Source: Escherichia coli
GTDB lineage: Bacteria; Pseudomonadota; Gammaproteobacteria; Enterobacterales; Enterobacteriaceae
Length of the DNA stretch: 64,000 bases
Reading direction: 5' to 3' (one strand)
NCBI RefSeq assembly: GCF_044324875.1
Contig: NZ_CP172185.1
Positions 37,301 through 43,300 of this stretch are shown piece after piece. Position numbers: made by a program. Numbering within the stretch: position 1 is the first letter of the stretch; each line of letters opens with the position of its first letter.

Positions 37301-40300
37301 TTCCGTCGGGTCGAATGTCCACAAAATAGCGACCATCTTCGAGCTTCTTAATTGACATAAGAAGACCCTCCAACAGTCCATTCTCCATCTTGAAAACAGA
37401 TAGAGAAAACGTATTCCTTATAAAGAGTTAACCAGTCTGTTTCCCTGATTGGGGTGACGTTGTTTCGACGTGCCCACAGTGTGCGAGAGCCGGGGCTATT
37501 TGCCCGTGTTCTGGGTCGATGCGGTCATACATAAACCAATTCTGATACTTATGAAAACGGGGGTGACCAAATATCTTAATTGCAGATTCCAATGTCATCT
37601 TAGATTTGTCACGCTCATAGCCGTGATAGGTTGTGTAATTAAGCCCTACTAAATCAACAAATTGCTGTTTTGTTAGCCTTTCCGAATCTCGCATGATCGC
37701 TAACTTTTCACCTTGAGTATTTGACATATTTACGAGTACTCCATATAGTTACGCAAAAACAACATTCCTAGCCTAAAACGGCAAAACACCGTCAAAGGCC
37801 GATTAGGCTAAGCAAGCCTCAATCAATGGCAACCTTGGAGTGTATCAAAAAATGGCAAAACAACGAGATTTTGAACAAATCACGACACATCAGCATTGCC
37901 GTCTCTATCCATTAGACGGCTACATCACGATGAACGTGTGCAAAATGAGTTCAACGCAGGCTGGACGCATACGTGATATGAGTCTGAGCGACTTACAACA
38001 ACAGGAGTTTGTTAGCCCAGAGGAGTTTGCATACATCACGGGGCGCACCTACAAAGCAGCCAAAAACATCATGGACCGAAACGAAAGCCTGCTTATTAAG
38101 GAATACGCCACGCCAGACGCAACACGACCTAAGCGATTTATCAGACTCCAGCACTACTGGGCCGCAATTATCAACAACAAAGCATCGCTGACACCACGCG
38201 AGCATCTATTTATCAATGAGATTCGAAACAACAAAACGCTTTACCGCGAGATGATGAAAATCAATCTCAAGATTCGCGAAGGGCGAGAAGTCTCGAAAAA
38301 AAAACCAAGATACTCCCATCAATCGCAATCAGCGGCATAACACCAAAAGGAGTTTTCCCATGTGCGACCTGAGCAAAGCAGAGCTAATTGCAATCATATT
38401 GTTTGCCATAGATTTTGGTTTTCTTTTGAGCGGCGCAATTCTCCTTCCTGCAATTAACAGGAAAAATTAATCACCACTGCAAATAACAAGAGCCAACAAC
38501 ATGACCCCAAGACAAGTATTAATCTCCAAAAATGATGACATATTGCACTTTCAAGTAAAATACATAATAGCCACAACAAAGGTAGGAACATCAATCTATA
38601 TACACTATCAGAATTTCTATCTGGAGAGAGTCTTCGAAACGGAAGGAGAAGCCCAGAAGTTTTTGATACACATAAAAGATTGCATAGAAGGAAAAATAAG
38701 ACCAGGGGATCAATAATGCGAAAACATTATTCACAACCATATATCCGTAACAGTGCGCCACGCAGCAATAACCGCTGGAGCCTGCGCGAAACACACGCAA
38801 CACCAGGCGGTCACGTTGTAAAACAAACTGGGGAACACACCCGGCTGATTGAGCAGGCTGGACTCGTGATCCACAGATGCAACCGCAATCCGTTTACCGG
38901 AAACCGCATCTTTGCACTGAGCAGCGGCGACAACCAGTTCGGGCAGGATTTCACGCTACACGAAGCCCTGCGAACTGCCGACCGCTTAATCGCGGGGCGC
39001 AGCTTTCAGCACCCGGATTACTAAAGAAAAGTCGGCTTAATAAGCCCTGAGCCAGTCTTAATAAGACATGAGAGGCGATAAGATGAAAAGAGCCTACAAA
39101 GAAATCGCTAACGACATACTTCAGAATTATCACCTAACCCTTGCGAGCAACGGTGTCGCCTATGATGAGCAATCGTTCCGCGCAATGCAGGGTGGGATTC
39201 TTGGGCTGTATATCGCCGCCACAGCCAGCGGCGACCTCGAAGCGCTGGCAGAATTAAAGGTTATCTATCCGAAAGAACTTGGCGAAGACCTGATTAAACC
39301 CTATCTCATTGAGGAGCTAGCATGAATATTCTTATCTCGTGGTTAATTCTCATCCTCGCCATTATTTGCGCGGTGGGAATCATGCGAATTATTAACGGCA
39401 TTAAAACCATCGAATCATTATTTACTGGCGACAAGCGCCATAAATAAATAACCGGAAATTACCAGAAAGCAAGAAAACATCCGCAACGGCGGAGGGATTC
39501 CCTTACGCCTGAAATAAGGAGCAGCGAATGAGTAAACCACTAACCAGCATTGAGCGAAAAATTGTTTTTATGAATGTGGCAGGCGTGCAGTTCGAAGTGG
39601 ATAAGCAGGTCATCGTCTCCGAAACGAGATGCCCGGCAGCAGGTGAGCAATGCACCTACCTGACACTGGCAGACGGCACGCAAATAACCGCCGTCACCGA
39701 CACCATTCGCGAGCTTGTGATTATCAGAGGGGTTAAACGATGACCAGCAAATACACCACCAACGCACGCAAGCCAGGCAAGGAGGCACGTCATCACATTG
39801 CCGTTCTGCGCAATCTCATCATGTGCGAAATCGACGACTTTGTGGCGGGACTGGGCCAGCCGGGCGAGCCAGCAACACCGGGCGAAATACACAAAGAACT
39901 ACGCCGCCGCATAGAAAGCGCGGTGGATTACGTCATGAACCCGAACGACTGACCAGAACGCGAGCGCGCGCCGGATGACGCACGCATAACGCTTAGCGGG
40001 AAGCGCCAACCGTAAGGCTGGCAATGATTTTTTCGGAGAGTGAGAGAGATTCGCGATGATTAAGACCAAGAGCAGCACAAGCTTTATTGCGCGCCGGGTT
40101 GTCCATGCATTCAAGCACCGGAGAGTCCTGCTTCTCAATTTCCACCAGTCGCGCCAGCAACACCTCCGTGCTGAGACCGTCGCTTTCAGTAATCAGGACG
40201 TTATAGCGATGAGCCTGTTCTTTTGCAGCCTGAGCGCGTCGCCCAAATTTCCAGGCGATATTGCAGCCACTAAGCACAGCCACGATACCACCCAGCAACC

Positions 40301-43300
40301 AACTGAAATTGCTGCCTGCAAACACAGTAGCCCCAGACGTAAGGATGACAGCATTAATCACCGTATCCATACGGCGGTTAAACACCTCCGAAATATGTTC
40401 AATCCAGTAACTGTTCCAGAGACGAAACATGACCTCGTGTCGCCGTTCGGCATGATTTTCAGTTGGTTGTCTGTTCATTGCGGTTTAACCCTCCTCATCA
40501 TCTCGCCCCTGCCCTTTTTCAGGCGCGGGAGCCGGTTGCCGTGGCACATGAAATTTATCGCTATCAGACATTTATTTTTTCCCGTGTGTTGTTGAACAAA
40601 GTGCCCGCACAGTTTTGACGGAACGGCGGGCGCTTCAAGCGTAACACACCCTTCTTTTCCGGTTGAAGGCGAAAAAAACCGGACAGCTACCCGACACAAA
40701 CCAGACCAGCGGAGAACTGCCATGTACGCACTTAAACCTATGGGGATACCAGGCAAAGCCCCGGCGCATGTGAAAGCCTGGACACAGCAGGAAGATGATT
40801 TGCTGATCACCCTGTACCCGCAGCACACAGCACGAGATATCGCCGGACGTCTGGGGCGCAGCTACGAAGGAGTTTGCGGCCGCATTTCTCGTCTGCGTGA
40901 ACAGGGCAGGATTGGCATCAAGCAGCAAAGACTAAGCGATGAGATGATCGCCACGCTCATCAGGAACCGCCACACCAGGTCCCTCAAGGAACTGGCACAC
41001 ATGGCGAAAGTTTCGACACGCACGGTAACCAACCGATTGAGGGCGCTGGGCTACAGCCTGATCAAATGCGGGGATCTGCATAAAAACACCGTCTACAGCG
41101 ACCGCATCGTTGAGATTATCAGACAGTTACACGACGAGGAGGGCCTGACGTTCAGGGAAATCGCACAGCGCCTTAGCCACGAACTACAGCCGAACCCTAC
41201 CCCGACACTGGCTCAACGTCTCTACTGGCGGTGCACAGCATCCGACGCCGTATTCCGTGAACTGTTACCAGATTGAGCAATCACCATGTACACACAAAAA
41301 AACCGCTTGCAACAACAAACCGGAACAGGGTACGCTTCCCCCGCACCTCATAAAGCGGGTGCCGGGTTTCGCAGCCTGCTGACTAGCAAAGCGCACAACC
41401 GCGCCAGCGGTTTTTTTGTGCGTACTGTATTGCCACGTCTTTTTCGCACACGAATTATGGCGGGGCGTACGGGGCCGACTTCGGTCGGGCCGGGTTCTTT
41501 GCTAGCCGGTACTGCGAACCTCGTACGTCTCGCCACCCACAGTTTCGCAGCTCTGGATGGTGAGTTTTTAAAACTTACTAGCAAAGAGGCCACACCATGG
41601 CAAACCGCAAACAGCGCCGCGCTACTGCGGAGCATCACCACGTCCGCGCCCAAATCGACAAACGCCTTTTCCGCGCATCACGCGTTGCACGCATCATGCA
41701 CATCAACATGCTGCATGAACGCAGAGGGGCACTACCGAACACCTATATCGCCTCCGTTTTCAGCTATCTGGCGGACGATCTCGCCGAGCTGCAACGCCTC
41801 ATTAACCAGCACTGATAAACATCCCGAAGCCATCCTGCGCCCGTTCGCGGGAGGCTTCCACACATCTGTAGTCGGGAGGATTGCGCCATGATTCTGGCTG
41901 ACGATTTTCTGGAGTACCTGAACAACACCGAGCGCGACCTGTACGCGCGCGTTCTCACCCGTTACGAGAAATACAAACTTTCACTGCCAGAGCATCAACT
42001 CCGCGAAGGCGATATCGACATTGAAGGGCGCTACATCGTCAGGCGCCGCATAGCGGGCTACGGCATCTGGCGTGTCACCGGACGTGAGCATTCATTGCTG
42101 ACCATCTGCCAGAGTCCGTCCGGCGTGATAACGGAGATCGTCGCCGATAGTCTGCGACTCACCCATCACAGCGCCACCCCGGAAGAAACGCTGGCAGAAA
42201 CCCAGCGTCTGTGTCGCGTCATTGCCAACGCCGCCCTCCGCGCAGACAGGAGGTAAGCGATGGAGTTCGTCAGAGACTGGCAAAAACCGCGCCCCGCTAT
42301 CGGGCGCGAAGGCTTACCCGTACCTGAAACCGCACTGGATACCATCCTGAAGTGTTACCGCGCAGACGAAGAGCGCGCACTGCACGCTGAAGAGCAGGGT
42401 CATCCGCTTGCGGGCACAACCATCGGTAACGCGATCGACAAGTGGGAAGGCGCACAGGAGCGCCAGGAAGAGGCCATCACGCTCACACAGGAAGCGAGAA
42501 GACACCCGCCCACCCTTATTGAGGAAACCCTCAAAGAGCTGGACACCCTGCCCAAGTGGTTGAGGCTGCCGCTGATTAAGCACCTGAACTTTTTAAGGCG
42601 CAAACAGGAGGACGAACAGCAGAAAGGCAAGCGCGGCAAGGACACCCGCAAATATGAGCGCTTCCTGAAAAACGGCATCCCCGCACGTCTTCGCCGTATT
42701 CGTGAGATTAACGCTCGCTTTGCACCGTTAAGTTTTCAGGCCGCTGCCATGCGCGAGAGTCTGGAAGAACTGATCACACTGCCGAACCTGAGCCGTGAAC
42801 GCATCCAGAAAATAGCCGTACTGCTTGCCAGCGCCGTTAAAATGCATCTTGCCGACGCAATGGACAAGGCCCGCGAAATAACAGGGAACGACAAAGACGA
42901 CAACCTGAACAACTGGCTGATTGCCTACCAGTATATTGGTCGCCGTGTCCTGAAGCTGGGGATCACCCCACCATACTGGAGCGCCCTTGAACTCCGCCCC
43001 GACCGCAGAAGCCCCCCGGACGTGACACTGGTTCCGGGCGCTGTTTTGCGCCTGAACGACGCCGAATGGTGGAATAAAAAACTTCGCCAGATGCACGACG
43101 TCTGGCGTGAGGAACTTTTACGTGCAGCGGGCCTTGTATCCCGCCAGACCTCCGTTTATGTGAGCCGTGAAGCGCTGGCAGACTTCCGCGAAAAACAGGC
43201 CCGTACCCGCGATTTTCTCAAAGCGCACGACGTGGAGAACGAAGACGGCGAACGCATCAGTCTGGAAGATATCTACTACGCCAGTACATCCAACCCGCAT

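What the first reader, a model, noticed from the sequence alone, without database searches (positions are those of the whole stretch)
39993..41276. Divergent pair inside the early operon: opposite-strand two-TM protein and a triple-HTH protein
P2-type early operons run rightward from cox to A. Here a leftward 161-aa membrane protein with a very strong ribosome-binding site interrupts it, divergent from a 184-aa protein built of three HTH-like repeats. A 28-codon ORF (40572-40489, MSDSDKFHVPRQPAPAPEKGQGRDDEEG) ends 7 nt before the membrane-protein start, suggesting a leader peptide or coupling. Small two-TM proteins in prophages are frequently superinfection-exclusion or abortive-infection effectors; the fold is loosely reminiscent of SLATT-type pore effectors, which is speculation.
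Basis: partly seen in the sequence, partly recalled or inferred. Interest (0 to 1): 0.6.

Follow-up and report, generated by a model that had tools for sequence, protein, structure and literature searches.

The report
Micropeptide plus stand-alone SLATT membrane cassette
A P2-type prophage carries, backwards inside its early region, a conserved two-gene cassette (a 28-residue proline-rich peptide plus a two-helix membrane protein of the SLATT "pore effector" fold) that recurs in many temperate phages and is a good but untested candidate for a minimal phage-exclusion or cell-suicide module; the neighbouring DNA-binding gene is not its partner.

Summary
All three ORFs exist as described. The small ORF is 40571-40485, one base off, and ends 6 nt before the membrane gene.

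The 161-aa leftward protein is under purifying selection (pN/pS 0.22). It has two TM helices. With a deep alignment it gives a confident model (pLDDT 93.5). That model superposes (TM 0.84-0.95) on AlphaFold-DB proteins annotated SLATT or DUF4231. Curated SLATT HMMs match only below threshold.

The 28-codon ORF is a real gene (pN/pS 0.24). Its F-H-V-P-R-x-P-A-P-x-P motif precedes the SLATT-like gene in about 25 loci, down to 21% SLATT identity. These loci are P2-like, lambdoid and Mu-like prophages. The cassette is always antisense to the surrounding operon. It has its own extended -10 element and a 5' hairpin.

The 184-aa HTH gene is an optional insert. It lies next to the cassette in only 2 of about 16 lineages.

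In P2-like loci the operon strand keeps a stop-free frame across the cassette, without amino-acid constraint.

An isrK/C4-RNA plus derepression-protein module lies just downstream.

The defence or exclusion function is inferred, not shown.

The parts
39993..40478 (-). Gene for a 161-aa stand-alone SLATT-like two-TM inner-membrane protein. Predicted topology is N-in/C-in, with a long N-terminal helix running into TM1, then TM2, then a small C-terminal helical domain.
   Evidence: ORF. phrog_6315 at E 1e-49. 205 representative clusters at E<=1e-3, all about 150-170 aa. pN/pS 0.22. AF2 pLDDT 93.5. Foldseek TM 0.84-0.95 to SLATT/DUF4231-annotated AFDB entries. Hydropathy.
40485..40571 (-). 28-codon ORF for a conserved proline-rich micropeptide (core F-H-V-P-R-x-P-A-P-x-P-E plus an acidic tail). 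It is the first gene of the cassette. Its last codons carry the SD (GAGGAGG, 40496-40490) of the SLATT-like gene.
   Evidence: Present with the same motif 3-9 nt upstream of the SLATT-like ATG in about 25 loci, and about 25 nt upstream in L029. pS 0.64, pN 0.15. Annotated as a 38-aa CDS in Providencia phage PSTNGR2lys. Called as 50-aa and 45-aa genes in L028 and L032.
40601..40633 (-). Stem-loop at the predicted 5' end of the cassette transcript (arms GCGCCCGC / GCGGGCAC).
   Evidence: A hairpin at the same place in 11 of 11 loci, with different stem sequences. MFE is -11 to -20 kcal/mol and z is -1.8 to -5.1 against shuffles.
40638..40667 (-). Putative cassette promoter: extended -10 TGTTACGCT (40646-40638) and -35-like TTCAAC (40667-40662).
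   Evidence: TGnTAnnnT is conserved 3-4 nt upstream of the hairpin in 11 of 11 loci. This is a consensus match only; no transcript data.
40056..40595 (+). 179-codon ORF on the early-operon strand, codon-aligned antisense to the small ORF and to codons 1-141 of the SLATT-like gene. Its ATG is the complement of the His141 CAT codon. It is kept stop-free, but its amino-acid sequence is not conserved.
   Evidence: TTA/CTA/TCA sense codons are almost absent (2 of 148 distinct column-codon states against 12.5% in gpA, P 6e-7). The other four frames carry 2-18 stops. Neighbouring genes reach this openness in 5-15% of windows. Antisense pN/pS is 1.05-1.22.
40722..41276 (+). 184-aa DNA-binding protein with a Myb/SANT-like first repeat plus two further HTH-like repeats. 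It is an optional early-region gene and not part of the cassette.
   Evidence: phrog_323 at E 1.6e-28. Weak Pfam HTH matches in three stretches. Repeat 1 against repeat 2 by hhalign, E 2e-8. Distribution. Flanking direct repeat (D1).
41343..41540 (+). Context: isrK-like sRNA (41343-41417, ending in an intrinsic terminator) and C4-type antisense RNA (41453-41540). They lie upstream of the 'derepression protein' ORF 41597-41815, orf122 and gpA.
   Evidence: Rfam RF01394 at 64.7 bits (GA 50) and RF01695 at 82.8 bits (GA 45). The same pair is present in L002, L003 and L017. Terminator. Annotation.

Best explanation
SHOWN:
- 40571-39993 (minus strand) is a conserved, selected two-gene cassette. A 28-residue proline-rich micropeptide gene is followed after 6 nt by the gene for a stand-alone two-TM protein of the SLATT fold.
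- The cassette carries its own conserved extended -10 element and a 5' stem-loop.
- It behaves as a mobile accessory unit ('moron'). It occurs in P2-like, lambdoid and Mu-like prophages of Gammaproteobacteria and is always antisense to the operon it sits in.

INFERRED:
- The cassette is transcribed from its own promoter in the lysogen.
- The SLATT-like protein inserts in the inner membrane with both ends in the cytoplasm. When activated it oligomerises into a pore or otherwise depolarises the membrane. This stops a superinfecting phage by abortive infection or superinfection exclusion.
- The micropeptide gates it. It acts either in cis (its translation controls initiation at the SD embedded in its last codons) or in trans as an inhibitor or sensor.
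- When the resident prophage itself goes lytic, convergent early transcription, and probably translation through the stop-free antisense frame, silences the cassette. That would give the phage self-immunity.

The 184-aa HTH gene is an unrelated optional early-region gene.
For: Coding and selection.

Family breadth and constant size, with no fused domains.

Fold:
- Confident model.
- It matches 154 AFDB entries at E<=1e-3, many named SLATT or DUF4231, with rmsd about 1-2.6 A over about 150 residues.
- SLATT_4 is the top NCBIfam match in 11 of 20 members, always in the same register.
- Sources name close relatives SLATT.

SLATT proteins are described as predicted pore-forming effectors of defence systems, for example DRT10.

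Micropeptide conservation down to 21% SLATT identity.

Promoter and hairpin.

Antisense placement in every locus examined.

Accessory status: 33 of 5426 E. coli genomes.

P2-like prophages are known carriers of anti-phage cargo (PMC9122126).
Against: - There is no experimental or transcript evidence for expression, membrane action or phage resistance.
- There is no PADLOC match. No Pfam or NCBIfam SLATT model reaches its threshold.
- No sensor or nucleotide-generating partner (SMODS, SLOG, TIR, RT) lies within +/-5 kb in any locus, so the trigger is unknown.
- Pore formation by SLATT domains is itself only predicted.
- The site is not one of the two P2 hotspots described in PMC9122126.
- In L017-L019 the micropeptide ORF is frameshifted while the SLATT-like ORF stays intact. 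An indispensable antitoxin role is therefore unlikely.
- No consistent SD-sequestering RNA structure was found.
Confidence: 0.5

Rival explanations
1. Addiction or stabilisation module rather than defence. The SLATT-like protein is a membrane toxin and the micropeptide (or the antisense early transcript) is its antidote. The cassette then mainly stabilises the prophage or modulates host physiology.
For: The two-gene small-plus-membrane-protein layout with tight spacing. Antisense overlap with an operon transcript. Other toxin-antitoxin pairs in the same prophage (RelE/HTH, DUF6516/HVO_A0114).
Against: The micropeptide ORF is disrupted in L017-L019 without loss of the SLATT-like ORF. No known TA family matched. 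Many TA systems also act in defence, so this is not a clean alternative.
Confidence: 0.15
2. The cassette serves the phage's own lytic cycle. Possible roles are membrane depolarisation to block secondary adsorption or injection, lysis timing, or help with DNA transit. It would not be a lysogen-expressed defence gene.
For: Location in early regions of three different temperate phage types. It is conserved across wide distances.
Against: It is always on the strand opposite to the early operon, with its own promoter-like element. That orientation would oppose expression during early lytic transcription. It is rare and patchy, as expected for cargo rather than a life-cycle function. P2-type lysis genes are present elsewhere.
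Confidence: 0.12
3. One reading: the 184-aa HTH protein and the membrane protein form a divergently transcribed regulator-effector pair.
For: They are divergent neighbours in the window. The same arrangement recurs with about 45-50% identical proteins in L017-L019.
Against: The HTH gene is absent near the cassette in 13 other lineages and sits 3 kb away in L028. L002 and L003 have the same cassette and flanks without it. The cassette promoter and hairpin are conserved regardless.
Confidence: 0.08
4. The rightward 179-aa ORF (40056-40595) is the real early gene and the leftward ORFs are shadows of it. Yersinia phage vB_YenM_42.18 is annotated this way (gp08).
For: The rightward frame is stop-free in nearly all P2-like loci and has ATG plus SD-like sequences. 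It is annotated as a CDS in NC_070913.
Against: pN/pS is 0.22 on the leftward frame against 1.05-1.22 on the rightward frame. The leftward protein family extends to loci where the rightward frame is full of stops. It gives a pLDDT 93.5 model. There is no PHROG family for the rightward product.
Confidence: 0.02

Closest known systems
SLATT-domain effectors of nucleotide- or cDNA-based defence systems (CBASS-type, TIR-SLATT, RT-SLATT such as DRT10/UG17)
   Same: Size of about 150-180 aa. A two-TM hairpin flanked by cytoplasmic helices. The fold superposes on AFDB entries carrying SLATT or DUF4231 names. Weak but consistent SLATT_4 profile match. Carried on mobile elements. Presumed membrane-disrupting action.
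   Different: Stand-alone: no SMODS, SLOG, TIR or reverse transcriptase gene nearby. It does not reach any curated SLATT threshold and has no PADLOC match. Its constant partner is a proline-rich micropeptide ORF, where DRT10 has an ncRNA upstream. It is embedded antisense in prophage early operons.
P22/lambda SieB abortive-infection proteins with Esc and sas antisense RNA (from my own knowledge; not tested here)
   Same: A small prophage-encoded inner-membrane protein inside an early operon region, active in the lysogen. The resident phage escapes through antisense-RNA-based control.
   Different: No sequence or fold relation was tested or seen. Here the whole cassette is antisense to the operon and carries a separate micropeptide gene, not an internal in-frame Esc product.
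hok/mok/sok-type type I toxin-antitoxin loci (from my own knowledge)
   Same: A membrane toxin whose translation follows an upstream leader ORF, a structured 5' end, and control by an antisense transcript.
   Different: The membrane protein is about three times larger, with a folded cytoplasmic part. The leader peptide sequence itself is conserved under selection. The antisense partner would be a translated operon mRNA, not a small RNA.
P2-family accessory anti-phage cargo (old, tin, fun(Z); the hotspots of Rousset et al. 2022, PMC9122126)
   Same: Variable cargo in P2-like prophages. It includes transmembrane effectors thought to act by abortive infection.
   Different: A different site: between cox-side early genes and the A-side genes, not next to cos/portal or at the Z/fun locus. 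It is oriented against the early operon, and the same cassette also occurs in lambdoid and Mu-like prophages.

Membership tests
[quoted passage not shown] | Two adjacent transmembrane helices forming a hairpin | tested here: met
   Hydrophobic segments at about 39-56 and 58-77. Helices 7-53 and 59-101 in the pLDDT 93.5 model.
[quoted passage not shown] | Overall fold shared with proteins that carry a curated SLATT or DUF4231 signature | tested here: met
   Foldseek against AFDB50 gave 154 hits at E<=1e-3. [quoted passage not shown] No solved structure was available for comparison.
[quoted passage not shown] | Match to a curated SLATT profile (Pfam SLATT_1-6/fungal, NCBIfam NF03363x) above its threshold | tested here: not met
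   Pfam: no SLATT match for the protein. Only 2 of 89 family members reach E<=0.1, and only to SLATT_fungal. NCBIfam SLATT_4 is the best hit in 11 of 20 members but scores 12-23 bits against a 55-bit cut-off. No precomputed Pfam domain on 89 relatives.
[quoted passage not shown] | Genomic association or fusion with a nucleotide-generating or sensing partner (SMODS, SLOG, TIR, reverse transcriptase) | tested here: not met
   None among the called genes or Pfam hits within +/-5-6 kb in the loci. All 205 representative relatives are about 150-180 aa with no extra domain.
[quoted passage not shown] | Membrane permeabilisation on activation | not testable with these tools
   Needs expression, depolarisation and phage-challenge assays.
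Known anti-phage defence systems (PADLOC-DB v2) | Match to any model of a known or candidate defence protein | tested here: not met
   No family at E<=1 for the 161-aa protein.
Core P2-family early-operon (replication) genes | Present in most members, on the operon strand, with a replication role | tested here: not met
   A related cassette occurs in 33 of 5426 complete E. coli genomes. It is on the opposite strand everywhere. It is also present in lambdoid and Mu-like prophages.
Toxin-antitoxin pair (small antidote plus membrane toxin) | Antidote gene indispensable whenever the toxin gene is intact | tested here: inconclusive
   The micropeptide ORF is frameshifted in L017-L019 while the 160-aa ORF is intact but more diverged. 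Toxicity was not tested.
Multi-HTH DNA-binding protein (184-aa ORF; PHROG 323 'transcriptional regulator') | Repeated helix-turn-helix modules | tested here: met
   phrog_323 at E 1.6e-28. Weak HTH-type Pfam matches in residues 19-70, 71-112 and 119-152. Repeat 1 against repeat 2, probability 95%; repeat 3 weak.

The most novel reading that the evidence does not exclude
The micropeptide-SLATT cassette is a new, self-contained minimal abortive-infection system of temperate phages. A conserved proline-rich nascent or free peptide gates a stand-alone pore protein. The cassette is deliberately embedded antisense in early operons. The phage's own early transcription then switches it off. In P2-like phages, which lack N-type antitermination, selection keeps a stop-free 'spacer' reading frame on the operon strand. 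Ribosomes can then carry the early mRNA across the cassette without Rho-dependent polarity.
Probability: 0.25. Interest if true: 0.8.

Novelty: new variant of a known kind. Interest (0 to 1): 0.6.

Why it matters
SLATT domains are widespread predicted effectors of bacterial immunity, and their activation is an open question. This is a SLATT-fold protein with no enzyme partner, only a 22-50-residue conserved peptide gene in front of it, in a 0.6-kb unit. It would be about the simplest system in which to study how such a membrane effector is held off and switched on.

The cassette is missed by PADLOC, Pfam and NCBIfam. In at least one deposited phage genome it is annotated on the wrong strand. 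It is therefore invisible to current defence-system censuses.

The stop-free antisense frame shows no protein-level constraint. If it is really maintained for ribosome transit, it would be an unusual case of selection on translatability alone. It would also show how phages tolerate cargo inserted against an essential operon.

Tried and rejected
- Megablast of the region against deposited phages found nothing.
- Pfam, NCBIfam and PADLOC on the 161-aa protein gave no significant match.
- PDB searches by sequence profile and by fold found nothing.
- The first AlphaFold run, on 17 close homologues, was poor (pLDDT 66). It was replaced by the 89-sequence run.
- The search for related loci with the diverse alignment A2 failed for lack of conserved stretches. 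The scan with P0037 found nothing.
The hairpin rests on per-sequence folds instead.
- I looked for a conserved structure hiding the SD of the SLATT-like gene. None was consistent.
- Programmed readthrough fusing the peptide to the SLATT-like protein was rejected. The two ORFs are in frame in most P2-like loci (gap 6), but gaps of 5 and 7 nt occur in others.
- I found no LexA box near 41420 when reading the sequence.
- The null distribution is wrong: minus-strand genes were not reverse-complemented and short genes were included. It must be ignored. replace it.
- The antisense ORF product has no PHROG family and shows no purifying selection. 'Conserved overlapping protein' was therefore rejected in favour of 'frame kept open'.
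- The P2-like versus lambdoid contrast in antisense openness is confounded by GC. Only L029 is GC-matched, so the contrast is only suggestive.
- The original SLATT paper (Burroughs et al. 2015) could not be read.
- Literature searches found no description of this cassette.

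
Full report
CONTEXT

The window's right half is a P2-family prophage.
- Integrase is at 36345-37388 (-) and a C-type repressor at 37428-37727 (-).
- Rightward early genes follow, with gpA (replication endonuclease) at 42260-44749.
- A 99.9% identical E. coli chromosome (LH50-c) shows the full P2-type late gene set: portal, terminase, GPO scaffold, P2-family capsid, tail genes, ogr and D. The prophage lies between glsA and copA.

OBSERVATION

The three ORFs are present:
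- 161 aa, leftward, 39993-40478.
- 184 aa, rightward, 40722-41276.
- 28 aa, leftward, 40485-40571.

The gap to the next ATG is 6 nt. The SD (GAGGAGG, 40496-40490) lies in the last codons of the small ORF, about 10 nt from the ATG.

THE 161-aa PROTEIN

Sequence searches:
- It matches PHROG 6315 (unknown function) at E 1e-49.
- It matches nothing significant in Pfam, NCBIfam or PADLOC.
- A word-indexed search found only 21 close relatives in Enterobacterales.
- A full profile search found 205 representative clusters at E<=1e-3. Nearly all are 150-180 aa with no extra domain.

Selection: codon analysis over 15 loci (35-85% identity) gives pN/pS 0.22 on this strand. It is a real, selected gene.

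Structure:
- Hydropathy shows two TM segments.
- AlphaFold with 17 sequences was poor. With 89 diverse sequences it gave pLDDT 93.5 and pTM 0.85.
- The model has a 47-residue helix running into TM1, a short loop, TM2 continuing into a cytoplasmic helix, and three short C-terminal helices.
- Foldseek against AFDB50 gave 154 hits at E<=1e-3, with TM-scores of 0.84-0.95. [quoted passage not shown] One is a 'Fels-2 prophage protein'.
- NCBIfam SLATT_4 is the top match in 11 of 20 family members, always over the TM hairpin. It scores 12-23 bits against a 55-bit cut-off.
- None of 89 relatives carries a precomputed Pfam domain. The PDB holds nothing similar.

Conclusion: this is a distant, stand-alone branch of the SLATT fold that curated models do not capture.

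THE 28-CODON ORF

In every orientation-corrected locus I read, a small ORF ends 3-9 nt before the SLATT-like ATG, or about 25 nt before it in L029. All share a core motif:
- Window: MSDSDKFHVPRQPAPAPEKGQGRDDEEG.
- Salmonella and Pantoea types: MSDTDKFHVPRKPAPSPEK....
- Yersinia type...DDFHVLHKPAPPEEKDDEE.
- Distant P2-like L028...DDFSISRAPSTPARQEK....
- Lambdoid L029...VFARKPPQTPTPPPPAEKK.
- Providencia phage PSTNGR2lys: an annotated 38-aa CDS...NHLNPKPIRPTPPPP....
- Mu-like L032, and L031 and L033.
- Haemophilus-type lambdoid prophages: MKIEKEERSHVPPRPTPQPKPR, at 21% SLATT identity.

Over the first 19 codons pS is 0.64 and pN is 0.15 (ratio 0.24). A shifted frame gives 1.58. The peptide sequence itself is therefore selected. 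The acidic tail partly reflects the embedded SD. The ORF is frameshifted only in the L017-L019 lineage.

CASSETTE CONTROL REGION

In 11 of 11 loci an extended -10 element (TGnTAnnnT) lies 3-4 nt upstream of a strong stem-loop. In the window it is TGTTACGCT at 40646-40638.

The arms of the stem-loop differ between lineages: GCGCCCGC, GCACCCGC, TATGCCGC, CTTGCCTG, TACGCCC and TGCGCCCG. Pairing is kept, with z from -1.8 to -5.1. A C/A-rich stretch and the micropeptide SD follow.

This fits an own promoter and a 5'-terminal stabilising hairpin. That is inference; there are no transcript data.

DISTRIBUTION AND ORIENTATION

- The cassette is antisense to the surrounding operon in all P2-like loci. 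gpA is always on the other strand.
- It is also antisense in the leftward early operon of lambdoid prophages and in a Mu-like prophage.
- Only 10 of 5426 complete E. coli genomes carry this allele, and 33 carry any allele at >=65% DNA identity.
- It is accessory cargo, not a core early gene. No published description was found.
- SLATT proteins are described as predicted pore-forming effectors whose activation is unresolved. P2-like prophages are known reservoirs of anti-phage cargo at other sites.

THE HTH PROTEIN

- It matches PHROG 323 (transcription regulation) at E 1.6e-28.
- It gives weak HTH-type Pfam matches in three stretches.
- Repeats 1 and 2 are homologous (hhalign E 2e-8). Repeat 3 is weak.
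- It sits beside the cassette only here and in L017-L019. It is absent near 13 other cassettes. A 40% identical homologue lies 3 kb away in L028.
- L002 and L003 share the window's flanks without it. The gene is bracketed by a CCATGTACRCAC repeat.
- It is an independent optional gene.

THE OPERON STRAND

The + strand ORF 40056-40595 is codon-aligned antisense to the small ORF and to SLATT codons 1-141. Stops in it would be sense TTA, CTA or TCA.
- In 15 P2-like loci these codons are absent from codons 1-139 except in L024. Where they occur, they cluster after codon 141.
- Counting each distinct column-codon state once gives 2 of 148 before codon 140. After it the count is 9 of 40 (Fisher P 1.6e-5). 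gpA of the same loci has 12.5% (binomial P 6e-7).
- The other four frames carry 2-18 stops. Synonymous resampling gives 1-6% per locus.
- Neighbouring genes reach this degree of antisense openness in 5% of windows in the cassette loci. In this prophage's own genes the figure is 11-15%. The null was faulty and is withdrawn.
- L028, at 43% GC, has a 201-codon antisense ORF in a different frame.
- Each ORF has an ATG, often with an SD. Yersinia phage vB_YenM_42.18 annotates only this strand, as gp08.
- The antisense frame has pN/pS 1.05-1.22 and no PHROG family. The frame is kept open, but the protein is not conserved.

My best reading is that ribosome transit of the early mRNA is what is selected. 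That would avoid Rho-dependent polarity in an operon without antitermination. This rests on established knowledge of polarity and is an inference.

The five lambdoid loci are not open (0.28-0.36 of length). Four of them are AT-rich, so this contrast is only suggestive.

NEIGHBOURING MODULE

- Rfam finds an isrK-type sRNA at 41343-41417, ending in the intrinsic terminator. It also finds a C4-type antisense RNA at 41453-41540. Both are above gathering scores.
- They lie upstream of the annotated 'derepression protein' (41597-41815), orf122 and gpA.
- L002, L003 and L017 share this module.
- In this phage group the cassette therefore lies at the junction between the cox-side operon and an RNA-controlled antirepressor/replication operon. 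That operon resembles P1 immI, the Gifsy-1 IsrK locus (PMC4825925) and P4 CI-epsilon. The P1 and P4 comparisons are from my own knowledge.

VERDICT

SLATT-like: yes. Leader ORF: yes, and more than a leader. Functional pair with the HTH gene: no.
- A defence or exclusion role is plausible but untested (confidence 0.5).
- Novelty: a new variant of a known kind.

Noticed in passing
window 41343-41540 (+), with ORF 41597-41815: isrK-type sRNA (RF01394, 64.7 bits) and C4-type antisense RNA (RF01695, 82.8 bits) lie directly upstream of a 'derepression protein' gene, orf122 and gpA. This is an RNA-controlled antirepressor module of the P1 immI / Gifsy-1 IsrK / P4 CI type inside a P2-family prophage. 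A promoter-like TTGCAA-18-TACGCT at 41307-41336 would start transcription at the isrK match. The same module is present in L002, L003 and L017.
   Followed up: partly
window 41288-41310 and 41403-41425: A 23-nt inverted repeat, 91% complementary, brackets the isrK-like promoter and its terminator. Its role is unknown.
   Followed up: no
L009 (NC_070913.1, Yersinia phage vB_YenM_42.18) 4812-5477 (-) against 5001-5468 (+): The deposited annotation calls only the antisense ORF (gp08, 221 aa). It misses both the SLATT-like gene (51% identical to the window's) and the micropeptide ORF. This is a probable wrong-strand annotation.
   Followed up: partly
L017-L019, about 4900-4967: In this lineage the micropeptide ORF is frameshifted and carries a stop, while the 160-aa SLATT-like ORF is intact but has unusually diverged TM helices. 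The cassette may be decaying or rewired. This lineage also carries the HTH gene beside the cassette.
   Followed up: partly
window 40716-40736 and 41280-41300: A direct repeat (CCATGTACRCAC core) sits at the start of the HTH gene and just after its end. L002 and L003 have a single copy and no HTH gene. This suggests gain or loss of the gene by recombination at this short repeat.
   Followed up: partly
window 45293-46806: Two further small modules lie between gpA and the portal gene, the known P2 cargo hotspot. One is DUF6516/TumE-like plus an HVO_A0114-family protein (45293-46050, +). The other is an HTH protein plus a RelE-family toxin (46086-46806, -). Names are taken from the annotation of the 99.9% identical genome.
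   Followed up: no
window 39322-39447 (+): A 41-codon early-operon ORF encodes a very hydrophobic peptide (MNILISWLILILAIICAVGIMRIINGIK...). It is annotated as a hypothetical protein in the identical E. coli genome. A 41-aa gene sits at the matching position in L003, so this may be a conserved small membrane protein of the early operon.
   Followed up: no
L028 4786-5391 (-): In a distant P2-like locus with 43% GC, a 201-codon ORF runs antisense across the micropeptide and SLATT-like genes. It is in a different frame from the one kept open in the Enterobacterales loci.
   Followed up: partly
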